The position numbers and the translations under genes were made by a program. Under the pieces are notes generated by a model. That model did not search any database. It saw only the letters and a program-made list of their open reading frames with translations, and was not told the DNA's origin. DNA of 63,465 nt, filler included, from Folioceros fuciformis (lineage: Eukaryota): the NCBI GenBank assembly GCA_049999805.1. It is 16 parts of 16 records of this genome, joined end to end, with 100 filler letters (N's around TTAATTAATTAA, not from the genome) between each part and the next. Parts side by side here need not be neighbours in the genome. Positions count along the whole stretch, not along the records: positions 21,905 to 33,579 come from JBNGIO010005696.1; 15 more parts are not named here. One strand, given 5' to 3'. Below are positions 3,753 to 33,579 of this stretch, in pieces. Positions within the stretch are counted from its first letter, which is position 1; each line of letters begins with the position of its first letter.

Positions 3753-4205
3753 TGTGCCGGACAAGCTTCAAAACCCCCGCAACAAGCTTCGGGACCCGCG
3801 GGACAAGCTGAAAAAGACGCAAGGGAGGGTCGCTAAGCCCTAAATACAAGTCCGGGCTGCCCTACTATTACGCTTACAGATACATACATCGTGTATGTAT
3901 TACAAACCTGTTTAGATACTGTTGAGGCGTGTACTGCGTGAAGAATGCCCTAAACCGGCAACTGGAACTGAAACAATACCCTAAATTGGAAACTGCTGTG
4001 TTCTTCGTGTTACGCTGCTGTCAGCATGCGACAAGTGTTGCAAACCTGTACACATCCTGCCTGGATGGAGGCTGGAGAGCTCTGGACGTGTCGGCTTTGC
4101 TGGAGCAGTCCTAGGAGCACTGGAGGAAGATGTCATGCGAGACGGTAGAGCTGAGGATCGAAGAATAGGTGCAGGAGAAGGAACTAGAATTGTAAGGCTG
4201 TAAAC
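3753..4205. promoter_or_regulatory. Shared divergent promoter region of RPL34 and eRF1
   Basis: 453 bp between divergent ATGs. Three CCCTAAA telo-box-like motifs (3838, 3948, 3979) and a 9-bp inverted repeat ATACATACA-TCG-TGTATGTAT (3880-3900). Confidence 0.5.
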
Positions 4206-5516
4206 ATGGGGGACTCTGTGGAGACAGATAAGAATATCGCGATATGGAAGATAAAGAAGCTGATCAAGGGGCTGGAATCTGCACGAGGAAATGGCACCAG
4301 CATGATTTCACTCATTATGCCACCCAGGGATCAGATATCCCGGGTGGTGAAGATGCTTGGAGAGGAATTTGGCACAGCGTCTAATATCAAGAATAGGGTG
4401 AATCGGCAGTCGGTGCTTGGAGCCATCACCTCTGCTCAGCAAAGGTTGAAGTTGTTCAATCGAGTGCCGCCGAATGGTCTAGTTTTGTACACCGGTACCA
4501 TTGTGATGGATGATGGGAAGGAGAAGAAGGTGACCTTCGACTTTGAGCCTTTCAAGCCGATTAATGCATCTCTGTATCTGTGTGACAACAAGTTCCACAC
4601 TGAGGCCCTGAACGAATTGCTGGAGTCAGATGATAAGTTCGGGTTCATCGTTATGGATGGAAACGGTACTTTGTTCGGGACTTTGAGTGGAAACACTCGG
4701 GAGGTGCTGCACAAGTTCACTGTTGATCTGCCGAAGAAGCACGGTCGGGGAGGGCAGTCAGCACTTCGATTTGCCCGGCTTAGGATGGAGAAAAGACACA
4801 ACTATGTGAGGAAGACGGCTGAGTTGGCAACGCAGTTTTTTGTGAATCCGGCAACCAGTCAGCCGAACGTATCTGGTCTGATTTTGGCAGGATCTGCTGA
4901 TTTTAAGACTGAGTTGAGTCAGTCGGACATGTTTGACCCTAGGCTTCAAGCCAAGGTTTTGAGCGTGGTGGATGTGTCGTATGGGGGGGAGAACGGTTTC
5001 AGCCAAGCCATTGAGCTGTCGTCTGAGATTCTGTCGAACGTGAAGTTCATTCAGGAGAAGAAGTTGATAGGAAGATATTTTGAGGAGATCAGTCAGGATA
5101 CTGGGAAATACGTGTATGGAATCGAGGACACATTGAAGGCTTTGGAAGCAGGTGCGGTGGAGATTTTGATAGTGTGGGAGAACCTGGATGTCCATCGGTA
5201 TGTGTTGAAGCATTCTATCACAGGTGATACCATCATCAAACATTTGAACAAAGAGCAGGAAGCGGATCAGTCTCAGTTTAGGGATCCGGAAACGCAGGCT
5301 GAACTCGAAGTGCAGGACAAGCTGTCTCTGCTGGAGTGGTTTGCTAACGAGTACAAAAAGTTTGGCTGTACACTTGAGTTTGTCACAAATAAGTCGCAAG
5401 AGGGTTCCCAGTTCTGCAGAGGATTTGGTGGGATTGGAGGGATTTTGCGCTATCAACTTGACATGAGAACCTTTGATGAGCTGTCTGATGATGGGGGTGT
5501 CTACAACTCAGATTAG
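4206..5516 (+). CDS. ERF1: Eukaryotic peptide chain release factor subunit 1, intronless, 436 aa
   Basis: GTS, TASNIK(N), YLCDNKF and GRGGQS motifs; C-terminal [11 protein letters not shown]; full length. Confidence 0.98.
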
Positions 5517-12745: not shown

Positions 12746-13787
12746 GGTATCAGGCTGTGCTTAAACCTAGTACCTAGTTTTCTCCAACACGTTTCAGATT
12801 CCTGGAGAAGCCCGCCATTGACATACTGGCAGCTCTTCACACACAGTCGGGTGGAGGAGGTGAAGGTCAGACTGCACGCCGAGGTTTCGAAGGATATGCA
12901 TTGAGCTTGTGATGGGGACATTTGCCATGGTGGCAGGATAGAAGACAGCAGGCTCTTGTTTAAGTTTTTCTTGCACCTCCGATCTCTTGGTTTCGCATCA
13001 CTATGTCCAAGGATCAGTACCCAACATCAGTTGCAAAGACTGCATCGCTTTATGGGTTGGGTGAAAGTACTCGTCATGATGGCCTTCGACTAACCTCATG
13101 GCAGAACCTGCCTTGTGGGCTGTGAAAGGGATCTTTCTACACAACCTGCGCGTGGCCATCTCCAGCCTTGGTGAAAGCTGGGAGGTCAGTGGAAATATGC
13201 CATCCCATTCCCGTCTTCAAGATATGGACGGGAATGGCTTGCTACGGTTTCTACGACCCCATGCACTCAAGTCCCTCGAGAAGCTATTCACTTGTAAGAC
13301 GTACGTGGCCCAAGCAGGGATTCGCTCCAGAGGCCCTCCAGGCGTTTGAAGAAACAGCCGTAGTTTACTCTTATGAGCGACAGTAGGTATATACTTCTTC
13401 TCCCATGCTTTACGGCCACTTCGTAGGTATTTACAATAATCTGGAGGAGGAGTTTTTCGCTCCGCTCGGGCCCGGTCAACAGGGTCATCTACACAGGTCG
13501 GTTCAACATTTCTCCCATCATCTAGTACATCAATCGGAGGCAACTGTCCCTCAATGACAGGCTGGCTTGCTCTCCATGCTTCATATCTTGCTCGAGCACT
13601 GGGGATGTAGTCAGGAAAGTCGTCAGAACCATCCTCCTCCTCTGTGTCTGTGGACTCTTCCCGATAAATGGGATTGGGATTGTCTCCAAAAATCTTCCTA
13701 TGTAGTTCCAGCCACTTAACCATGGGATCACCCATATACTCATCTTCACCAGGCTCCCAATATTGCTTGTCAGCCTCGTCAAAAATT
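12744..13787 (-). repeat. Copy 1 of a ~1.05-1.2 kb interspersed repeat carrying an unknown acidic ORF
   Basis: Near-identical to 55201-56235 and, reverse-complemented, to 56533-57566. Confidence 0.9.
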
Positions 13788-14329
13788 CTTGCAGAAGGGA
13801 TGGAACCGTTGAAATTGTTGCTCGACAAATTAAGAGTGACCAAGTGCTGTAGGCCTCCAATTGCAGGAGGGATGGGGCCGCTGAGCTCTTGCCCTGGCAA
13901 AGTCAAAGCAACCACTGTCAAAGGACTGTTCGTCAAATCGCACTTGACACCGAACCAGAAGCAAGCAGCCCCAGTGTTGTTCTCACTCCAGAGCGCAAGG
14001 ACATGGTAAGGATCGCTCGTGATGCCTCGCTTGAAATCCAGAAGAATGGACACCTCTGTTGCGTTCAAACTAATGGACTGGTTGCCAGAGATATCTTGCA
14101 GCTGCCTTTCCCAGGTGGCGCGGTAAACAGTGCAACAGGACGTATGAACGTTGGCAAGTCTATTTGTGTGGTTGTGCGTGCCATTCCGACTATTCCGCTT
14201 GAACTGACGTGATGACGCGAACGATGAAGCATAGACTCCGGATCCTGCAGCACGGACACCGAGATGCAGACTGAAGAGCCCCACAACGAGAAGCAGGTGC
14301 ATCAGCTCCATGACCGGGACGTCTGACAT
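13217..14329 (-). CDS. Chimeric 370-aa ORF: signal peptide + LRRNT + 2 LRRs fused in frame to repeat-derived sequence
   Basis: Hydrophobic N-terminus, EVSILLDFKRGITSDP..LALW..C.WFGVKC (LRRNT), LPGQELSGPIPP, LNLSSNNFNGSIPS; from 13787 onward the sequence matches the repeat. Confidence 0.7.
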   Translation of the reverse strand: MSDVPVMELMHLLLVVGLFSLHLGVRAAGSGVYASSFASSRQFKRNSRNGTHNHTNRLANVHTSCCTVYRATWERQLQDISGNQSISLNATEVSILLDFKRGITSDPYHVLALWSENNTGAACFWFGVKCDLTNSPLTVVALTLPGQELSGPIPPAIGGLQHLVTLNLSSNNFNGSIPSARIFDEADKQYWEPGEDEYMGDPMVKWLELHRKIFGDNPNPIYREESTDTEEEDGSDDFPDYIPSARARYEAWRASQPVIEGQLPPIDVLDDGRNVEPTCVDDPVDRARAERKTPPPDYCKYLRSGRKAWEKKYIPTVAHKSKLRLFLQTPGGPLERIPAWATYVLQVNSFSRDLSAWGRRNRSKPFPSIS

Positions 14330-14610
14330 GCGCCCCGCTCAACGAGAGGCACAGACAGTTCCTCCACTACCGGGGATGCCTCACAAGAGCCCCACACCAA
14401 GAAGCAGAGGCAGGACGTCCAAGACCAGGGACCTCTTACAACAGCGCCCACAACGGCGTAGAGAAGTGGAGGCAGCTTGTCCATGACTGGAGATGTCTCA
14501 CAAGAGCCCCACAACCTGAAGCACGTTTTGCGGCCGAAATCCAATCCCTGCAGACATGACACGAGACTCCCACAAGGACGAGCCCCACAATGAAGCAGAG
14601 GGAAGGAAAG
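14270..14610. repeat. Degenerate ~57-bp tandem repeat overlapping the LRR signal-peptide region
   Basis: Recurrent AAGAGCCCCACAAC..GAAGCA core at about 14277, 14333, 14388, 14445, 14505, 14565-14581. Confidence 0.6.
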
Positions 14611-21804: not shown

Positions 21805-21904
21805 NNNNNNNNNNNNNNNNNNNNNNNNNNNNNNNNNNNNNNNNNNNNTTAATTAATTAANNNNNNNNNNNNNNNNNNNNNNNNNNNNNNNNNNNNNNNN
21901 NNNN

Positions 21905-23540
21905 CTCCCAAACGTCTCTGGCATCCAAGAAGGCTTTCATCCGGGCACACAAGCTCTCATAATGGGAAGCCTTGCCATCAAAACGATCCTTCTCCTTAAA
22001 TTCACTTGAATAAGCAGCTCCAAAAGAAGCACCAGTAGCAGTAGCCATGATTTGAGAAGAAGGGACAGTTGGGATTCTAGATTGTAAGGGCTGTGGATGT
22101 GAAGGACTAGCCCCTAACCGTGCCAACTCTTGAAGTGACCAAGTAATTTGAGTATGAAGTCTAAGTTGTTCCTCTACTTCAAAATCAGTGGAAGCATGTG
22201 CATCTACAGGCTCAAGCTCAACTGGTGAGTCCAACTCGCTGCTGGATGATGAGGCCGACATACACAATCTAGCAAAAGACGGGTAGGCTACCTCTAGAGA
22301 AGACTTAAAAAAAAAAACTATTCTAAAGTCCTTTTTCTAAGAAACTCAAATTGAAGTTAATTAAAAAGGAGCTTCTAAAAAAAAGTTTTTTTTTTTTAAG
22401 GAAAAAGGCCCAACGCAACAAACCGCCAACTTAAACACGACGGGGCGAACCGCCAACTTAAAAGGAAGGCCGAAACGCTAAGTTGCCGCAACTCGATGCA
22501 CACCGCGACACGGGGAAAACGGGCACAAACTCTAAGCACATGTGGAAGAAGAATCCTCACGGGCAACCTTCCAGGCACCAATCCAGATCTGTAAACCACA
22601 CGAGAGCAGGGGAGCGCCTAGCAGTGAACAGCAAAAACTAGGCCAGTGCCTGCACCCCTTCAGATCTGAAACTGCTTCAGAGGAGAGGAACATCCCGCCG
22701 CGGGCGAGATGGCTTCAACGATGGCAAATACATGGCCACCAACGGGTCTCTGGTAGAAAGATCAGGCGCCCACCCTAGCCGTGAGGAGTGTGCTGCAAAA
22801 TTTTTATCCACAAGATCTTCAACTGCTGAGAATCGCCTGCACACCTCTGCGTTTAAGTGAAGAAGAGACTCCACAATTCCATTCACCACAGTCTTCAGAT
22901 CTATGAGAGAAGCACGGGATGCATGAATCGCAACAGAAACCTTCCAGCAAAGCTATGAATCATCTAAATTGTGGACACGTGAGTCCGTAGCAAAATTTTT
23001 CCTTGTATCCCTTGTGTAATTCCTACACGAGTTCCGAAGAAAAGGTTGCCTCTGACTCTTGTGCACAATCCTATTATGATCCCTAGAGCAAGGTAGAGTG
23101 TCCCCCAAGAATCCAGGTTTCCTAATAGCCTGCCTAAATTGTGATCTCAGATTAGAAGAAGGCTGGAAGAAAAACTCTGAAGACCGATGGCCTCTACCCT
23201 TTGCCATTATAAATTCTCATGTAGGTGTTTCACGATTCATCCCTAATTAGGACATCTACAATAAAACACCACACTCTTTGATCAAGGACTAAACATAAAG
23301 TCTCACTAGCAACATGCCAGATGAGACTCATGCCAATAGCAATATGATCAAAGCATCTTCACAAAAAAAACAACCATGAGCTCTGACACCATGTTTGTAA
23401 TAGCGGAAGCTTATAGCAAAAGTTGTATATTGAATAATAATAAAACATTTGTGTATGTGTTTATATACTAGGTTAAGTCTAACCCTAAATAAAAATTAGA
23501 CTAACCTACCGAGTTAGGTTAAAACAATTCCACCTTAACA
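21905..23540 (-). mobile_element. Ty1/copia 5' end: LTR 23540-23392, PBS, ~1.1-kb leader with extra ORF, gag N-terminus
   Basis: 149-bp TG..CA LTR, PBS TGGTGTCAGAGC (23391-23380, tRNA-iMet-like), gag SEFKEKDRFDG..RMKAFLDARDVWE. Confidence 0.88.
22677..23207 (-). pseudogene. Extra ORF (ORF0) upstream of Copia gag, 177 codons with one internal TAG
   Basis: ORFs 23207-22953 and 22889-22677 are in one frame; homologous to 42206-41667. Confidence 0.75.
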
Positions 23541-23555
23541 TAACCCTAAACCCAT

Positions 23556-23792
23556 AACCTGTCACCGTCGGCAAGGAAGACTTTCTCTGTTTTCACTGCG
23601 AGCAGATGTCGCCACTCTATGTGACCCTCCACCCGTGCCATTTCCTTCCCAGCCTTTTCAATGCAAAGTCCGCAGCACATCACCACCATCACGTCAGGAT
23701 CACTCTCCAGGAGATACATCGCCAAACAGATTCACGCCTCCAGCACAAGACACAATCTCCGGAACCCAGAACCCTGCTCCCATCAATGGGTC
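23556..23792 (-). pseudogene. C-terminal half of an Fe/B12 (BtuF/FepB-like) periplasmic-binding-protein gene
   Basis: DPLMGAGFWVPEIVSCAGGVNLFG, then after a frameshift DPDVMVVMCCGLCIEKAGKE...WRHLLAVKTEKVFLADGD; matches the W.DPL..AG.WVPE...AGG / DPDV.V.MPCG / AV..G.V...DG family pattern. Confidence 0.78.
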
Positions 23793-26700
23793 TGTTAGAA
23801 ATCCATAGGGTTTTGTAACAACGCATCTAGACTAGCATGCTGTAAGTATATCCCAGGATATATAGGATAATACCATGTTCGGGATATCGTTTGTCCATAC
23901 CGAGGTATTGTCATGTTTTAAAGTTTCTTTGTGTTGTGTACAGGCCCATGGAGACTATGTGTTTGTTGTAAGACCTTGTGCAAGTAGGTGAAGCTTGGCG
24001 TTCGTTTAGGGAAGTCATCTTGTTCGGCCGCAAAGGACGGGAACATGGAGACACGTCTTCTCGAAACTTATGTGGTGGAGAAGTTCGGAGGGAAAAACTT
24101 CACATTATGGAAGCTGAAAATGAAGATGCTTCTTATCAAGGAGGGAGTATGGAAGTTCGCTGACAAGGGTCTCGATGTGGCACCCATAGAGAAAGACCTC
24201 AACAAAGACGGACGGGCCTTGGCAACAATCTTGTTGAGTGTCTCAGATGACGTTCTCTCTCAATTGAGCAAATGCGCAACGTCACAAGAAGTGTGGATCA
24301 CGCTTTGCAATACATACGAAAAGAAAAATATGGTAAGTTCGATGCTGTTGGAACAACAACTTGCGAACTTCACGATGGCCACAGGCGACACGATCCAGCA
24401 ACATGTCAACAAGTTAAAGACCTTAGTGGACCAGATGAAGGCGATGGACATCAAACCGACCGAGGAAAGGATCCTCGTGGTGTTGTTGTGTAGTTTACCG
24501 CCAATCTACGAGCCATTTGTGTCGGCCTTAAGGACAACGGTCGCGATGCAATCAAGCGACAAACCGCCGTCGTTGGATGAGGTGGTCGGATTGCTATTGC
24601 AGGAGGGATTGGAGTTTTCAAACAAGAAAGAGAAGATTGATGACGCCATCCTTTTCACCAAGAAAGACAAAGCAAAGGCAAAGTTCAAGTCTAAGGACGA
24701 GTCTAAGTCTACAGACGAGAAGAAGAAGGATGGTACGAGCCGTACGACGAAAGGATCTTGCTATTATTGCAGGATGCCATGTCATCACGCCAAAGAATGT
24801 AGAACTAGGTTGGCAGACGAGTCGAAGAAGGAGAAATCCTCTCAAGCCAATCAAGTGAGTCAGCAACCTCAACAGGAACAATCATTTGTGGCTAGCGATG
24901 GAGCTACTTCATCGACGAAGGATGAGAATCTTTATCTCGACTCTAGTGCATCTCAGCACTTCAGTTACAACCTTCTAGGGTTCACTGGCTACACTAGACT
25001 CTCAAAGGGCCATACAGTGGCACTCGGTGACAATACCTCACATGATATTGAGGGGAAAGGAGTCTTACACATTCAATTGCAGGGCGGCAACCCCGCACGT
25101 ATAGAGAATGTGCATCATGTACCTCATCTCGCTAAGAATCTTCTTTCTGTTGCGCGCATTGCAGATGCAAGTCATGAAATAGTCTTCAACTCCACAGGCT
25201 GTCGCATTCAACTTGTACAGCCTAAGCCGTCACACGTGGTTGCTCGTGGTGTTCGTGTGGGAAACCTGTACAAACTTTGTGCTTTCATGAGAAAGCAAGC
25301 TTGTACGTTCCTGGCAAGTTCACACAACCACATAGAGTCTGCCAATTTATGGCATCAACGTTTGGGCCACATTGGAGTGGACAAACTCAAGCAGATGACG
25401 ACTCATGACATGGTGACGGGATTAGATTTGAAGGATATTACTGCAACACAATTGTGTCCAGGATGTCAGATGGGGAAGCTAAATCGCACAAAGTTTTCTA
25501 AAGTTGTGACACATTGTGCGCAGAAGGCACTGGAATTAGTCCACACTGACGTGAGCGGGCCCATGCGGAACCCTACACAAGGTGGGAATCGCTACATGCT
25601 CATCTTCGTTGATGATTTTACAAGGAAGACGTGGACTTACCTTTTGAAAGAAAAATCTCAGGTGTTCCAGACATTTAAGGAGTGGAAGAGTATGGTGGAG
25701 ACCGAATGTGGTGAATGCCTTAAGATGCTTCGGAGCGACAATGGAGGAGAATATGTTTCTTCTCAGTTCCAAAGTTTTTGTCAGAAAAATGGCATCAAAC
25801 GACAACTCACGATTCCGCACACCCCGCAGCAAAATGGAGTCGCGGAGCGGAAGATACGGAGCCTCGTGGAAGCATCCAAGTGCATGCTGTTTCACAGCGG
25901 CTTGCAGGTCAACTTTTGGGGAGAGGCTGTCATGACAGCAACCTATGTGTTGAATAGAGTTCCGACAAAAGCCGTAACTAGTATGACACCAGAGGAAGCG
26001 TGGTCCGGTATAAAACCTAATATTCAACATTTGAAGGTTTTCGGTTCCACGGTCTACACTCGTATCCCGAAGGAGAGCCGGACCAAATGGGATGCTAATG
26101 GAACGAAGTGTCTCCTGCTTGGCTATTCAGATGTAGTCAAAGGCTATAGGTTATACAATCTTACTACGAAGAAGGTCTTTTTTAGCAGGGACATTGTTTT
26201 TCAGGAGGCTGTCGAGTTGATGCCTGGAGTGGGCCCTTCAAATGTACCATCTACCGGAGATAATGGTGTGCCTTCTCCAACTAGCTGCCATCTTGACCCA
26301 CCTGATCCGATGTCTGACGACTCTTCTCAACCTGGTGACAAAAGGGGGGAAGGGGGAAACACTCCTAATGTCCCTACAGTTGAAGACGTTGTTGGAGCCT
26401 TACCCCCAGCTGCTGATGAAGATTGTGATATCGAGGGGGGCAGGAGCGAAGCTTCCGATGTTTCTAAAGAAGTAGCAAACTATCTTGTTATAGCACCGCA
26501 ATCGAAATTACGTAGATCCACTAGGTCCGTAAGCCTTCTCAGAGGCTTATAGACTCCATCAATGGATGTGTATAGGATGAGCTAGCATGTTTTACAGATG
26601 TTGAAGAACCTCAAAGCCTGACAGAAGCGTTAGAAGGTCTAAAAGCAAAGGAATGGAGAAAAGCCGTGGACAGTGAGTACAACTCAATTATTAGAAATAA

Positions 26701-27845
26701 AACACGGACAATAACTCCTCTACCTCCTGGAAGGAAAAGCATAGGGTCTAAATGGACCTTCAAGATCAAGCGAAAGGCCGACGGTAGCATAGAACGATAC
26801 AAAGCGAGGTTAGTAGGGAAAGGGTATACACAAGTCCTCGGTGTAGACTATACCGACACTTTCTCTAATGTCGCTAAGATAGCATCTATCCGAGCCCTTC
26901 TCGCTATCGCAGCTGCCTTCAATATGGATATACATCATATGGATGTCCAAACCGCTTTTGTTGAATGGTGATCTCGATGAAGAAATATATATGGAACAAC
27001 CAGAAGGGTTTGAGTTACTTGGTCAAGAAGGCGAAGTTTGTAAGCTGCAGAAGGCTCTCTACGGTCTTAAACAATCTGCCCTTGCTTGGTATCGTAAGCT
27101 CGACAATCACTTACAGTCTAAAGATTTCAAGAGAACTAGCGCTAATTGGAATATATATGTGAAGCAAGTGGGAGAATCCATTGTTATCATTGCTGTATAC
27201 GTGGATGACTTGATCATTGCTAGCAACAATGTGGAACTTTTAAACTCAACTAAAAAGAACCTCAAAGAAAGTTTTGATATGCGAGACATGGGCGAGCTCC
27301 ATTATTGCTTAGGAATAAAGGTGGAAAGACAAAGGATCAACAAGGTAATCTCCTTAATTCAGCAAACATATGTGGAGAACATACTGGAGCGTTTCGGAAT
27401 GCAAGAATGCTATTTTTCATGCAGGGACGAAACACATTGAAGTTAAGCATCATTTCATTAGGGAGAAAGTCTAATCTAAAGAAATAGAATTAGCTTATTG
27501 TCCTATAGAGAACATGCTGGCTGATGTTCTTACAAAAGGTCTAGCCTTAGAAAAGCATATGAAGTTTAGCAAGATGTTAGGGTTTATTGAGTAAGATTTA
27601 TAAATTAGATAGTCAATGTGTTGAGTGGGAGTGTTAGAAATCCATAGGGTTTTGTAACAACACATCTAGACTAGAATGTTGTAAGTATATCCCAGGATAT
27701 ATAGGATAATACCATGTTCATGTTCGGGATATCGTTTATCCATACCGAGGTATTGTCATGTTTTGAAGGCTATATATGTATGTACGTGCTATCAATCTAC
27801 ATGTGCTGAAACATAGATTGATCTTGGTACTCACTATTTTTAATA
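23793..27845 (+). mobile_element. Ty1/copia element with 5-bp TSD GGGTC; truncated 5' LTR, gag-pol 23988-27594, PPT, 3' LTR 27632-27845
   Basis: GGGTC at 23788-23792 and 27846-27850. Both LTRs start TGTTAGAAATCCATAGGG. PPT TTGAGTGGGAG. Gag, CYYC..HHAKEC, LDSSASQH, integrase, RT (YVDD) and RNase H motifs, with frameshifts and deletions. Confidence 0.96.
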
Positions 27846-28507
27846 GGGTCCAACCACTGCAGACAGACCACTGATACATGAGGAACCGATTTCAACGTCC
27901 TCAGCTGCACAGTCCTTTATCATGCCTTCAGCTGCTGTACAAACACCGTACCCCGAGTATGTGCAGAACAGGAAGCGGCAATCGTCTGAATGTTGTCAAC
28001 CACATTCGCTATCTGCAACACCCACGATCATCAGTCTTCGTTGCTTGAGGAAAACCAATCTGCATTCTCACTCACAAACACACAAGCTACATAGTACTTC
28101 ACTTACTCGATGTGGCTTCAGGGACACCACCTTGCACGCCCTACTACTGCCCAACAAATACACCCCACAAGCTTTCTCCAAGTCATCTAGACTGAAACTT
28201 GATTTGACCATGTCTTTCGTCTGGAATGGGGATTCGTCAAGTGAACTTTGCACGTCTGTCACAAAGGACTGGCAGGCGTTGCTGGAACAGTTGTTGATTG
28301 ATGATAACCACTACTACAAAGGCCCAAATACTAGACTAAGCTGACGCCAAGAGTAGTGTAGGAGCTCCTGGCTTGTTGCTCTTTTGCAATTCATGTGCAA
28401 ACCTAGACTACGGTGCATGTACGACGCATGAGATGCTTTGTCGGCTCAAGAGCTCTGAGATCTCCTCCATAACCGAGGGCAACGCGGAGCCGTGAGGGCA
28501 CCTCCAT
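27846..28507 (-). pseudogene. N-terminal half of the same Fe/B12 binding-protein pseudogene, with a GT-AG intron 28106-28013
   Basis: LRVA/LPSVMEEI, KVVSLKPHR|IANVVDNIQTIA..RG..FVQQLKA**RTVQ..VSVVCLQWLDP reads straight into 23792 once the TE and one TSD copy are removed. Confidence 0.75.
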
Positions 28508-29249
28508 CTCCCACCGGTGCGAACTACAGGTTGTCGATTACAATATTCCTCATGCATTGTTTTTCGTTTCATGCCTTCACTTCACTTACAAGCTTGCCAT
28601 GACAGTTGAGTGGACTTGACTTAATGGCCATGCCATTGGCTGGTTGGATGTGGTGGTGAGGATGGGGTGGGTCCGGTCCGCCGGCAATGGCACATGGGCT
28701 GAGTTGCTATATTTAGCTAGGTTGAGGAAGGTGGCTGGGAAGCTTCTCAAACTCATGGCTGGCCTGCCTACAAAGATGCTCGCAATGGACTAACGGTCAT
28801 GGGTAGGAGATGATAGGTTCGCTGGTGGTGGGCTATTGGGGACGGAATGCTGACAAAGAGCTGAGGCGATGAGCTGCTGGTAATGTGGTTGCGACTATGA
28901 GGTGTAGCGATGGGCTGCTGGCGGTGTGCTGTTGACGATGGGCTACTAAGGATCAGCTTGGTGGGCGCGGACGTATCGAGAGAGTGGCCTGAAGCGGGCG
29001 AGGTATGAACTAGACACGTGCAGCGTTTTTGCTGATTTCAATTGCATTCGCCGTTCTAGCTGGTTGTTTGCCCTTAGTGTCAGGAACTAGTCGAATGTTG
29101 CATTTCAGAAGTTATGGCTGTGGTAGTGGCAGCTTGCATTTGCCGGCTTTGATTTTTGGCTGGAGGTCGTTGATGTCGAAGTGTGTGAACGATGTGTACG
29201 TATGTCACGGAGAGCAGTACCCGGACCCTGGAAGTATGGTGCACAGTGG

Positions 29250-29880
29250 CGCGTGTGGTGGGCGGGATTGACCCTCGGGGGTTGTGGGAATTGTGCTGGT
29301 TGTGGATGTTGTGCCGATGCGGATGGATTCTTGGCATGGTTGAGTGTGAAGAACGGGGATGGATGTTGATGGAGGTTTGATTGTCTTGAGCCAGGAGTGT
29401 GGGGCGTGGGCTACCTGAGGTTATTATGGTATAACGCTGATGACAGGGTGATTGTGGGTGTGGGTGTGGGTGCAGGATACGGTCAGTGTGCGACTTGTTT
29501 TGCTGGCGGCGTAGTCGTGGGCTATCTGTGAGGAGGGCATTGAATGCGCTGTGAGGCGAATGTGGTTGTGATCACGTATGCGAGCGTGGTGACAACGTGA
29601 TCAGGTGCAGTTCAAGTGCTGGAACGTGTGGCCTTGCTGCATCGTGCTCAGTTGCGCGTGTGGCGGAGGGGATTGAGCTCGGGGGTTGTGGGGAGTTTTG
29701 AGGGTTGTGTTGCTTGTGGTTCCTGAGGCGATGCGGGTGGATGCTTGGCATGGTTGAGTGTGGTGACGGCTGCCGTATGTTGTTGGCGGTTTGGTTGTCT
29801 TGAGCCAGGAGTGTGGTGCGTGGCTGAGTGAGGCTATGACGGTATGCGGCTAATGATAAGTGGCGATGGTGGGTGCAGGG
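29250..29880 (+). repeat. Degenerate ~400-bp direct duplication in a G/T-skewed region upstream of the Roc-COR gene
   Basis: CTCGGGGGTTGTGGG..CTTGGCATGGTTGAGTGTG..TTGTCTTGAGCCAGGAGTGTGG occurs at about 29274-29402 and 29678-29816. Confidence 0.7.
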
Positions 29881-29976
29881 GCATTGGATATGTGCTGGCA
29901 GTTGTGTAGGGTAGATCGTGGGACGTTATAGCTGGGCGGTGTGGTGGCGTGCGTGGAAGTGCCTGGACGGTGCGGC

Positions 29977-32900
29977 ATGGCAAGTTCAAGTTCCAGCAGA
30001 GTGGGGTCGCAGGATGTGGAGTCGAACGAGAAGCCAATTCCTTTTGAGTTGCAGCAGCTTCTGGCCGAGCTGGGTGCTGGTCCCTGGCCAGCAGCTGCAG
30101 ATGCCGCATCTTCAGCCGGCACTCCGTGTCGGCCAGTGCGCACGGAGTTTCCTACCGATGTAGACAGAAGCTTTAATGCGACTGCGCGATGAGGCGCAGG
30201 GGGCAGAGTACGTGTGGGCGCTGGGAGTGTGGAAGCAGGTGTTCAGGGCCCTTGGTCGATGCACTACTCTCAAGACCGTAAATGTAGATAGAAGATTCTT
30301 CGAGGAAATGGAAATCAGCAAGGCAATTTCGAATTCGAAATTGGTGGAGGATTTCGTTGGGGGCTTACAACTCATATCCGATAAGTCCAACCTGGAGACG
30401 TTGCGCCTCTATATAACCTGGCCATCTACTGGGAGGTTTGGGTCAATTTGGAAGGGTTTGGGAGATTTTGCGCGTCGTAGTCGCAACCTGCGTGACTTGA
30501 CACTGTTTACGAGTGTTTTGGATGAGAATGTCCTCGAATTGTTGACTGGACTTGAGGCCAACCACAACTGCGACCTGGAAGTCCTACGCTTTAAATGCGA
30601 TTTCGTGATGTTTGCTGATGAAATACCTATGGGGAGATTGTGGGATCATACTGTCTACCCATTCTTGCAGCACATTGAGATTCCTTTAATCATCGGCGCA
30701 TCATCCACACTACTTGTGGTGGAAAACATGATATCGCCCTTGATCGGAAATACACGTCTGCGACGTTTGCACGTGAAATGCAGCCAGTATGCAACGGCGA
30801 TCGACGCATTGGATGGATCGTTAGACAAATTCAGACGGACGATGGACAGGATGGAAACAGCGCGTAGCTCTCACCGATGGATGATACAGAGATTGCTAGA
30901 AGCGCTTGGAAATTATGGTGAGAAGGAAAGCTTGCCAGGCAATAGATCTATCACAGATTTCAAACTGACCAACTTTACCCACAGAGTTGTGCCGTATGTA
31001 AACAAAATGTTGAGTGTGAACAAAGTGCTGGAAAAATGTTATCTCAAATGCGGTAAATGCGAAGATGCTGCCGACGGATTACAATTAGATAGGATGAAAA
31101 ATGTGAAAAACTTGAGAATACAGGGAAATTATAGCAACAGTTTCATGCATATGGTTTTCACATCTTTGGGGGAAAATGTAACACTTCAGCACCTCGACAT
31201 TGACAACTCATGCGATATGGCTGACGAGCTACTTTCAGATCTTCTGCAAAGCCTGAACGTAAACAGCGTGCTCGAAACGCTGAAAATAGAAAATAAAGGC
31301 TGGAGAAGGAGCGGAAAAATCGCACTCATACAAAATCGTATGCTTCGGAACAAGTGGCAAATAGCGTATCTACCCACTTTTCGACAGCATTTGGACTTCA
31401 AAGTGCCCGCTGCTGGTAAACTCTTACTTTGCGTCGGGAAAGAGGAGGTAAAGTGTAGTAATTCCACTCTCACCAACTACCTCTTCGCTTGTTTAATACC
31501 ATTCAGCTTCTATTTCTTCATGAGGTTGCTTTTATTATTGGATGGATAGTTTGTGACGTAGCTTGTTGTAAATTGTATGTAGGCAAAACTACAATAAGGA
31601 GAAACATGGTTTACTATCTACGACATCCTCTACAATGGAAATTCTTGCGTTCAATAAGAGTGCCCTGGATCATGACAAAAGGTATAGCTATTGAACATGT
31701 CTTCAATCACCAGAAAGATTTTCAAGTAAGCATTTGGGATCTTGCTGGCCAAGCTGAATTCCGTTTTCTCCATGATTATCTCTTTCCTAATATCCACCAA
31801 GCCTGCCTTTTTTGTTTCGTATTTAGTCCTTTTGATTATGAGATAAAAAATATTCTACCTGGTAACCAAATTAGCCAATTATTTGAACAAGNNNNNNNNN
31901 NNNNNNNNNNNNNNNNNNNNNNNNNNNNNNNNNNNNNNNNNNNNNNNNNNNNNNNNNNNNNNNNNNNNNNNNNNNNNNNNNNNNNNNNNNNTAAACAAGG
32001 AGATGTAGTAAAACCCAAGATATTAGTTGTAATTACACACGTAGACAAGTTCAAAACAAGGATGAAAGAGATTGAAATTCTTTTAAAAGAAAAGATAACT
32101 AGTCTAACACAAACTTTCTCAAATCTGGTAGATATAATTCCAAAATTGAAAATCATCAAGGCTCTATCTTTGAAATGTATGAACGAACTAACAAATGAGG
32201 TAGTGCTACATTTGAAACTTTTGTGCTCAAAATCTATACAAGTTCCCGATGTATGTGAGAAGTTGGGTGATGTCTTGATTGAGTGGGTATCTAAAAATCC
32301 TTTTGAACCTGTCATGAGTGTACAAGATTTTAACTGCTTTTGTGTAGAAAACCTCAAGGATTTGAACAAATTCCAAGTGAATGATCAAGAGAAGATAGTG
32401 ATTGCCATTATCGCTTACCTCCATGATATCGGTAAAATCATTCATTTCAAAAACAATAACCTAGTAGCAATTAATCCCCATTGGATTACTCATGACTTTC
32501 TAGGTCATTTGATGCAATTACATAGACCTGACTTACCCCCGACTAATCAAGTATATATACCACGCTTGCCTACTACTGACCAAGGATTTGTACAACAAAA
32601 AACACTTGAGAATATCCTCACTACCTTTACAAAGAATCATGCTAGACTTGAGCCCAAAGACTTGATGAATATTATGATAGAGTTGGAGTTATGCTACAAA
32701 GCATGCCTAGAAGACATGGAGATGCCAGGGTTTTTCATTCCATTGACAATCAAGCAACAAGGAGGCTTGAGTAACAAGACGTCTCTTGAATGGCAGACTA
32801 GAGATGAGAACACATGTGAATTTCTAGGAAGAAGATTACAATGTCAAGATCCTCGTACTATCCTAACTGAGGGCTTCTTCCCAAGGTTCCAGGTACATAT

Positions 32901-33579
32901 ACATATATGGTTTCCTACCTTGCAATTCATATGTGATGAATAGAACAGGATTGTGTACTAAACCATTTGACTATCTTTAGGTGGCATTGCACAATAGTCT
33001 CTTTGAAAAGAAGCATTTGGGAATGCAATCTCGCAAGCAGTACTGTTTTGGTTATAACAATATATCTATTCTTTGCAATGGACTGGATATTCTTATCGAA
33101 TATAGCGGTGGTGGGCACATTGGCTGTTATGTTGACATCCTTGTCAAGTCAGCACAACCTCTTGGGTTCGCTTATGCATTCACAAGTGAGCATATTTTTG
33201 AAAAATTGAGGGAATTTTGTGCTTCCACCAGTGGTTGTTCTGGTGTGGCATTAGAAGGGGCTTTTATCAACCCTCATTGCGTAAAGGACCTAATATCTTG
33301 CACATTGAGACAAGTGTGCACGGTGAAGAATCTAACGAAGATTCTTGAGGCCTATCAAGAGCAGGGCGAAGGGTATTTTAGTACTTGGAATATATTGGAC
33401 TATATGCATACTTGGCCTCCTATAAGTGATGTACAGAAGGCCACATTTTCCCGCCTAGATAAGTTTGTGGATGCAGATTACTTGACGGACTTAGTGCAGA
33501 GGAACGCAGAATCCTATGAAAGGCAGAAAAATCGCATTGATGAAGCTTCAGCTGAGTTTGTGTCAGCAGCTGTCACCCA
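29977..33579 (+). pseudogene. TORNADO1-like LRR-Roc-COR (ROCO) gene; exons ~29977/30176-31447, 31583-32892, 32981->33579; apparent frameshifts; 3' end lost in a gap
   Basis: RI-like LRRs, GKTT, TKGI, WDLAGQAEFRFLHDYLFP, VITHVD, YLHDIG.I..F, INPHW, FFIP, GRRLQC, GFFPRFQ|VALHN as in plant TRN1; GT-AG introns. Confidence 0.85.

What the first reader, a model, noticed from the sequence alone, without database searches (positions are those of the whole stretch)
23556..28507. Intron-containing bacterial-type Fe/B12 substrate-binding-protein pseudogene split by a retrotransposon
Seen: excising 23793-27845 and one GGGTC joins VVCLQWL-DP-LMGAGFWVPEIVSCAGG, and a 94-nt GT-AG intron shows nuclear residence rather than contamination. 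Established: this motif set matches ABC class III (BtuF/FepB-like) binding proteins of bacteria; flowering plants do not use cobalamin, whereas many algae and reportedly hornworts retain B12-linked genes. Inference: relic of a B12/siderophore acquisition function, inherited from algae or horizontally acquired. The ligand cannot be determined from sequence.
Basis: partly seen in the sequence, partly recalled or inferred. Interest (0 to 1): 0.75.

Follow-up and report, generated by a model that had tools for sequence, protein, structure and literature searches.

The report
Broken copy of ancient plant fusion
This is a dead, transposon-riddled duplicate of a working plant gene that joins a vitamin-B12-binding-type fold to an amide-forming enzyme, an apparently unstudied gene inherited from early green algae rather than a lost B12-uptake relic.

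Summary
A Ty1/copia element (23793-27845, target duplication GGGTC) splits a Peripla_BP_2-type gene; the paralog shows the empty site, and the 94-nt GT-AG intron is spliced in a public run. It is a recent duplicate (dS about 0.08) of an expressed gene whose transcripts lack the lesions I could check. The parent gene fuses a class III binding-protein fold to an asparagine-synthetase-B-like PP-loop domain with a zinc ribbon. The same fusion occurs in Prasinoderma, Closterium, Chara and Diphasiastrum, and the gene tree follows the species tree (green clade 100/99), so it was inherited, not recently acquired. The family has no export signal and rarely neighbours ABC permeases (2 of 80 bacterial loci), and METH was not found in the host, so B12 or siderophore uptake is unlikely. 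Most likely it is a cytosolic capture-and-amidate enzyme. A corrinoid link survives in bacterial context. The pseudogene is ordinary; the parent fusion appears undescribed.

The parts
28107..28195 (-). Remaining 3' part of a binding-domain exon; its 5' part and the whole N-terminal half of the domain are deleted (1,124 nt relative to copy B, at 28195/28196)
   Evidence: blastn against copy B; X1 loose end at 28195 continues into the missing half
28013..28106 (-). 94-nt GT-AG intron, phase 0
   Evidence: same intron in copy B; skipped by X1 contigs, depth 228
27846..28012 (-). Binding-domain exon, 5' part, with two adjacent premature stops at 27922-27917; 27846-27850 is the second target-site copy
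   Evidence: X1 contigs and copy B carry sense codons there
23793..27845 (+). Ty1/copia LTR retrotransposon: truncated 5' LTR (about 23793-23926, primer-binding site deleted), gag-pol ORF 23988-26552, broken RT, 3' LTR 27632-27845 ending TA instead of CA
   Evidence: LTR distance K=0.055 over 134 nt; 44 LTR matches in G000
23559..23792 (-). Binding-domain exon, 3' part, with a net 32-nt frameshifting deletion near 23707-23716; splice donor at 23558; 23788-23792 is the first target-site copy
23380..23540 (-).
   Evidence: a 97% identical LTR with a GGTTA 3' flank in contig C5850 (L029) precedes the AsnB-like half
28196..28600 (-). Upstream sequence shared with copy B; not homologous to the binding domain
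29293..33579 (+). Neighbouring gene with a COR-A domain, duplicated together with the pseudogene
   Evidence: 84-92% identical to copy B's neighbour; COR-A E=6e-8, below cut-off; 'LRR-ROC-COR, TORNADO1-like' is a recalled label

Best explanation
The window holds a non-processed duplicate pseudogene. A block carrying the fusion gene and a COR-domain gene was duplicated recently. This copy then lost 1.1 kb, gained stops and a frameshift, and took two LTR insertions; the second separates it from its 3' half, probably contig C5850. The parent gene is still expressed and encodes a fusion inherited vertically since early green algae: signal-less class III binding-protein fold, long low-complexity linker, AsnB-like PP-loop synthetase domain without glutaminase, CxxC..CxxC zinc ribbon, and in some land-plant members a hydrophobic tail. 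Inferred mechanism: a cytosolic, possibly tail-anchored enzyme. The binding fold, with conserved His and four Cys, holds a metal-containing ligand (corrinoid or another metallo-tetrapyrrole), and the PP-loop domain adenylates a carboxylate and forms an amide with ammonia or an amine. Shown: pseudogene status, expressed paralog, fusion, vertical descent, no export signal in orthologs (about 0.9). Inferred: catalysis and ligand (about 0.4).
For: Best homologs of the copy-B piece are PF01497+PF00733 fusions, named as Chara, Prasinoderma, Closterium and Diphasiastrum. Copy C (L030) gives a 677-aa open spliced 3' half with SGGLDT, TGDGADE and the zinc ribbon. X1 holds 0.64 of the words of copy C's 3' half. 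X1 contigs splice the intron, lack the element, stops and deletion, and continue into the exon that precedes the AsnB half; only 1 of 22 laid records is 99%+ alike to the window. dS 0.082, dN/dS 0.77 over 473 codons, copy C vs C5850. Tree: green clade 100/99, streptophytes 97/93, land-plant rows 95/80. No lipobox in 108 complete N-termini; His and four Cys kept in 112-115 of 117. The model matches heme- and B12-binding class III folds. The AsnB-like profile hits E. coli AsnB at 1e-35. The same binding family pairs with another PP-loop ligase in prokaryotes: fusion P0252, neighbour in 7 of 80 loci.
Against: The 5' half of copy C could not be read, so no single full-length intact gene was seen in G000. 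X1 is one run, RNA only by guess, kept as contigs, and no listed piece spans both domains. The PP-loop Asp is lost in 6 of the 8 full-length fusions checked besides Chara and Prasinoderma's (all of P0003, P0005, P0166, P0016, P0217, P0219, P0220, P0022 lack it), so many orthologs may be catalytically dead. No AsnB-like gene lies near the binding gene in 0 of 80 bacterial loci. Six of the seven Dph6-like neighbours come from look-alike loci, so they count as about two independent cases. The signal test is a crude hydropathy and pattern screen.
Confidence: 0.7

Rival explanations
1. One reading: relic of an exported B12 or siderophore uptake protein whose function the lineage has lost.
For: Class III fold, closest solved sequence V. 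cholerae BtuF at 3e-26; relatives automatically named 'cobalamin-binding protein'; cobalamin riboswitch in 2 of 16 hand-picked bacterial loci; hornworts keep METH (PMC11439496, passages).
Against: Expressed intact paralog; fusion to an AsnB-like domain; no export signal; permease in 2 of 80 loci; METH not found, METE found.
Confidence: 0.1
2. The parent fusion is a non-catalytic sensor or scaffold: the binding fold senses a metal or cofactor, and the AsnB-like domain is a pseudo-enzyme or nucleotide sensor at a membrane.
For: PP-loop Asp replaced in 8 of 10 fusions checked; some land-plant members also lose the CxxC motif; long disordered linkers; hydrophobic tails in P0016, P0022, P0217.
Against: This host, Chara and Prasinoderma keep the full PP-loop and GDGADE motifs.
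Confidence: 0.3
3. Recent horizontal transfer from bacteria into this plant lineage.
For: Most of the best 150 relatives are about 300-aa proteins of bacterial type.
Against: The window row nests among green-lineage fusions in species order, 100/99, next to a group holding the stramenopile Aureococcus. An ancient bacterial origin of the algal clade is not excluded.
Confidence: 0.03
4. Copies A, B and C are haplotypes or assembly duplicates, not paralogs.
For: Fragmented assembly; the window is a chain of short contigs.
Against: Copies B and C lie 50 kb apart on one contig in opposite orientation; window vs copy B differ at 64 of 1,008 aligned sites and carry different lesions.
Confidence: 0.05

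Closest known systems
Class III ABC substrate-binding proteins (BtuF, ShuT/HmuT, FhuD; Pfam PF01497)
   Same: Fold and profile: Foldseek E 1e-16 to 1e-12 to heme- and B12-binding proteins, about 20% identity; PDB profile hits.
   Different: No signal peptide or lipobox, conserved His/Cys set, mostly orphan in bacteria, fused to an enzyme domain in green plants.
Asparagine synthetase B synthetase domain (PF00733); stand-alone glutaminase-less AsnB-like proteins with zinc ribbon of protists, fungi and Nitrososphaerota
   Same: PP-loop and GDGADE motifs; E. coli AsnB 1ct9 at 1e-35; atlas clusters of the stand-alone form.
   Different: No glutaminase domain; far below the NCBIfam AsnB cut-off (64 vs 499 bits); fused behind a binding domain.
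DUF71-B12 / Diphthami_syn_2 PP-loop proteins predicted to act in B12 salvage (PMC3541065, passages)
   Same: PP-loop amide-ligase fold tied to BtuCDF genes (75 of 102 in that paper); here tied to this binding family as neighbour or fusion.
   Different: The plant fusion uses an AsnB-type, not a Dph6-type, PP-loop domain; that function is itself only predicted.
CBA1 of Chlamydomonas and Phaeodactylum (PMC10828217, PMC11439496, passages)
   Same: Eukaryotic BtuF-like fold retained in streptophytes that mostly lack METH.
   Different: CBA1 homologues often carry signal peptides and CrCBA1 has no Pfam domain; this family hits PF01497 and has no signal. No direct sequence comparison was made.

Membership tests
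Class III ABC substrate-binding protein (BtuF-like) | Two-lobed helical-backbone fold / PF01497 | tested here: met
Class III ABC substrate-binding protein (BtuF-like) | Export signal (signal peptide or lipobox) | tested here: not met
   0 lipoboxes in 108 complete N-termini, 96 start the domain within 15 residues; fusion N-termini hydropathy at most 1.76; the host's own N-terminus was not readable
Class III ABC substrate-binding protein (BtuF-like) | Cognate FecCD permease and ATPase alongside | tested here: not met
   FecCD-like gene in 2 of 80 bacterial loci; in both a second binding protein is present too
Class III ABC substrate-binding protein (BtuF-like) | Binds B12, heme or a ferric siderophore | not testable with these tools
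   needs a binding assay
Asparagine synthetase B | PP-loop synthetase domain | tested here: met
   copy C motifs
Asparagine synthetase B | N-terminal glutaminase domain and full-length model score | tested here: not met
   no GATase family in the Pfam scans; 64 vs 499 bits
CBA1 | Sequence homology to Cr/PtCBA1 | not tested
   no CBA1 sequence was fetched
DUF71-B12 | Diphthami_syn_2 (PF01902) domain | tested here: not met
   plant fusions hit PF00733, not PF01902
Ty1/copia LTR retrotransposon | gag-PR-IN-RT order, LTRs, 5-nt target duplication | tested here: met
   (5' LTR truncated, 3' end mutated)
Duplicated (non-processed) pseudogene | Intron kept, disabling lesions, intact expressed paralog, relaxed selection | tested here: met

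The most novel reading that the evidence does not exclude
Green plants from Prasinoderma to lycophytes carry an overlooked cytosolic enzyme that binds a corrinoid or related metallo-tetrapyrrole through a Cys/His-lined BtuF-type fold and amidates it with a fused AsnB-like ligase. This would be a eukaryotic counterpart of the predicted bacterial DUF71-B12 salvage step, kept and expressed in a land plant in which METH was not found, and so would point to unrecognised corrinoid or tetrapyrrole chemistry in seed-free plants.
Probability: 0.2. Interest if true: 0.8.

Novelty: new variant of a known kind. Interest (0 to 1): 0.42.

Why it matters
The broken copy itself is routine genome decay. It points to a conserved domain fusion, old enough to span Prasinoderma to lycophytes, that I could not find described. 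It also points to a large signal-less, Cys-rich subfamily that databases label 'cobalamin-binding' or 'iron ABC binding protein' although it looks cytosolic. If the ligand is a corrinoid, it adds a testable component to the open question of how and when land plants abandoned B12.

Tried and rejected
PDB search with the 60-aa window piece gave only a WD-repeat chance hit. The PF01497 family search of G000 found 0 candidates although copies exist, so family searches miss divergent intron-split genes and the METH blanks are 'not found with these queries', not absence. No holder on record as RNA was listed; X1 is RNA only by guess. X2 and X3 covered only retroelement conserved bits. The L032 row in the first tree was mistranslated through my coordinate error; it was ignored and corrected. 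The careful mixture-model tree of 64 rows did not finish; the careful tree uses LG+G4 on 40 rows, 24 dropped for speed. Complex prediction of the two domains was not available, so domain contact is untested. Contig C603 holds only a 47-nt end fragment. Look-ups of earlier findings returned nothing. Literature searches for the fusion found no describing paper among those listed; one search returned only off-topic cobalamin papers. Rejected: contamination (introns, splicing, plant neighbours); 28507 as start codon (no homology in three frames); window gene and stand-alone L032 as one clade (p-AU 0.0008).
Full report
OBSERVATION. The window contig is G000:C5696 (window 21905-33579). A copia element spans 23793-27845 with GGGTC on both sides. 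Pfam finds gag, protease, integrase and RT in copia order. Its 5' LTR is truncated and has lost the primer-binding site, and its 3' LTR ends TA where the other fetched full copies end CA; the shared LTR part differs at 7 of 134 sites. On the minus strand the flanks read as binding-protein exons with a 94-nt GT-AG intron at 28106-28013. The C-terminal 60 aa hit Peripla_BP_2 at E=8e-4, below cut-off; all four exons read through with X score 117 bits against a 92-sequence family profile and cover positions 113-267 of 309.

WHAT WAS MISSED. A paralog, copy B (L010), is 84-92% identical over the block including the neighbouring COR-domain gene and has the empty target site. Against it the window copy lacks 1,124 nt at 28195/28196, which removes the N-terminal half of the domain, lacks a net 32 nt near 23710, and has two adjacent stops at 27922-27917. 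The stretch 28196-28507 is not part of the domain. Right at the next splice donor sits a second LTR element (23540-23392 plus primer-binding site, target duplication GGTTA). Among the 5 other copies of this LTR that I fetched, of 11 matches in all, only the one in contig C5850 has GGTTA as 3' flank, and it is followed by the rest of the intron and the remaining gene. C5850 is therefore probably the 3' half of the window copy (inference). Copy B is also broken, with frameshifts and truncation after the next exon start.

THE PARENT GENE. The only 2 hits among 108 candidates for a 95-aa copy-B piece were fusions of PF01497 with Asn_synthase PF00733. Searching G000 with the Chara protein found further copies. 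Copy C (L030) splices through four introns (three GT-AG, one GC-AG) into a 677-aa open frame with the PP-loop SGGLDT, TGDGADE, a CxxC..CxxC zinc ribbon and a moderately hydrophobic tail. Its 5' half could not be read, so a full-length intact gene was not seen in G000. Run X1 holds 0.64 of the words of copy C's 3' half. Laid on the window, X1 contigs cover the exons at depth about 90-230 per bin against 2-9 on the element. They skip the 94-nt intron and the element, fill the deletion, have sense codons at both stops, continue at 28195 into the missing half and at 23559 into the exon that leads to the AsnB half. Only 1 of 22 laid records is 99%+ alike. Of the 29 non-element differences shown (82 further rows were not shown), 20 equal copy B's letter. 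X1 is one run and RNA only by guess, but precise intron skipping supports RNA. Copy C versus C5850 gives dS 0.082 and dN/dS 0.77 over 473 codons, and C5850 has lost the PP-loop. Both LTR distances (0.055, 0.027) are smaller than dS, consistent with insertion after duplication.

DISTRIBUTION AND ORIGIN. Fusions are named from Prasinoderma coloniale (with a second, more divergent binding domain), Closterium, Chara braunii and the lycophyte Diphasiastrum complanatum; P0003, P0016, P0022 and P0217 are unnamed. In the careful tree (40 rows, 24 of 64 dropped, LG+G4, midpoint root) the nine green rows are one clade at 100/99. Streptophytes group at 97/93, and the window row groups with Diphasiastrum, P0016 and P0022 at 95/80; the window row fills only 49% of columns. 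The adjacent groups include Aureococcus. This pattern fits vertical descent from early green algae. The host is inferred to be a seed-free land plant; I did not identify it. G000 also has a separate intact stand-alone member (L032, 394 aa, six GT-AG introns), not sister to the window gene (p-AU 0.0008).

HOW IT MOST LIKELY WORKS. The AlphaFold model of the Closterium domain (pLDDT 81) matches heme- and B12-binding class III proteins at about 20% identity, so fold alone does not name the ligand. Unlike transport binding proteins (established knowledge), this subfamily seems not to be exported: of 117 domain-bearing proteins among 152 examined, 108 had complete N-termini, none had a lipobox, and 96 start the domain within 15 residues. 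A His and four Cys are kept in 112-115 of 117, which suggests a metal site in a reducing compartment (inference). In the 80 best of 576 bacterial loci, a FecCD-like permease occurs in 2, DUF6580 in 4, a Diphthami_syn_2 PP-loop gene in 7 (six look-alike loci) and an AsnB-like gene in 0. Two of 16 hand-picked loci have a cobalamin riboswitch; in L100 it precedes a second binding protein with a signal-like N-terminus, the signal-less member, permease and ATPase. P0252 fuses Diphthami_syn_2 to this binding family. Bacterial DUF71 genes cluster with B12 transport genes and are predicted to act in salvage (PMC3541065, passages). The binding family has thus paired with two different PP-loop ligases, which supports a capture-and-amidate role. 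The plant domain matches AsnB's synthetase half without a glutaminase, so it would use ammonia or an amine. Against this, the PP-loop Asp is replaced in 8 of 10 fusions checked, all but Chara and Prasinoderma, so a non-catalytic role is plausible in many lineages; this host's copy C keeps it. METH was not found by family or protein query while METE was. This is weak evidence, but it argues against B12 supply to methionine synthase.

COMPARISON WITH WHAT IS KNOWN. It works like a class III binding domain but fails two defining features of ABC substrate-binding proteins (export, cognate permease). It is not AsnB (no glutaminase; 64 vs 499 bits). CBA1 is the known eukaryotic BtuF-like protein, present in almost 80% of streptophytes surveyed (PMC10828217, passages) and in hornworts, which keep METH (PMC11439496, passages); it often has a signal peptide, and I did not compare sequences. 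I also read passages of PMC10878165 and bioRxiv 10.64898/2026.08.07.738727; the latter has no occurrence of 'asparagine'. No supplements were read; the homologue lists of the two CBA1 papers may bear on the CBA1 question. No paper held both PF01497 and PF00733, and searches listed none on this fusion (search listings only).

VERDICT. Real, and as a locus ordinary: a decayed segmental duplicate with two LTR insertions. It is not the relic of a lost uptake function. The interest lies in the parent gene, an old and apparently undescribed fusion of two known domain types. Novelty: new variant of a known kind. Interest 0.42.

Noticed in passing
L032:4905-6700 (G000:C3970): Separate intact stand-alone member of the signal-less binding family, 394 aa with six GT-AG introns, on a long branch among unnamed rows of bacterial length; a second, independent lineage in the same plant.
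   Followed up: partly
window 28600 to 23579 (run X1): A contig at depth 48 joins the last binding exon back to the upstream region over 3 nt of microhomology, and another shares copy B's 1-nt deletion at 27959: some rearranged or broken copies seem transcribed (or template switching).
   Followed up: no
window 23546-23554: A 9-nt spacer resembling the plant telomere repeat, plus an extra GGTTA, lies between the splice donor and the second LTR; three other fetched copies and C5850 show a polypurine tract there, and the other 5' LTR has no such spacer.
   Followed up: partly
L029:3719-4029 and L031:3003-3296: Truncated AsnB-like halves are followed by sequence like the gene's own upstream region, suggesting a former tandem array of the fusion gene.
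   Followed up: partly
window 30164-33579: Long-ORF gene with a COR-A domain duplicated with the pseudogene (84-92% identical in C6268).
   Followed up: partly
P0004 (Prasinoderma cluster), P0024, P0060, P0061: The glutaminase-less AsnB-like domain has varied partners: two binding domains, N-terminal glutamine amidase, Diphthami_syn_2, DUF924.
   Followed up: no
window gaps, e.g. 21805-21904: N runs with a TTAATTAATTAA linker mark concatenated contigs; neighbours across them are not evidence of linkage.
   Followed up: yes
window 4188-5513 and 13220-14338: An uninterrupted eRF1 ORF and an LRRNT_2 leucine-rich-repeat ORF.
   Followed up: no
L011 (G000:C603): Degenerate reading frames that look like a PPR-DYW gene (recalled label, not confirmed by a scan); the contig ends in 47 nt identical to copy B's binding exon.
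   Followed up: no
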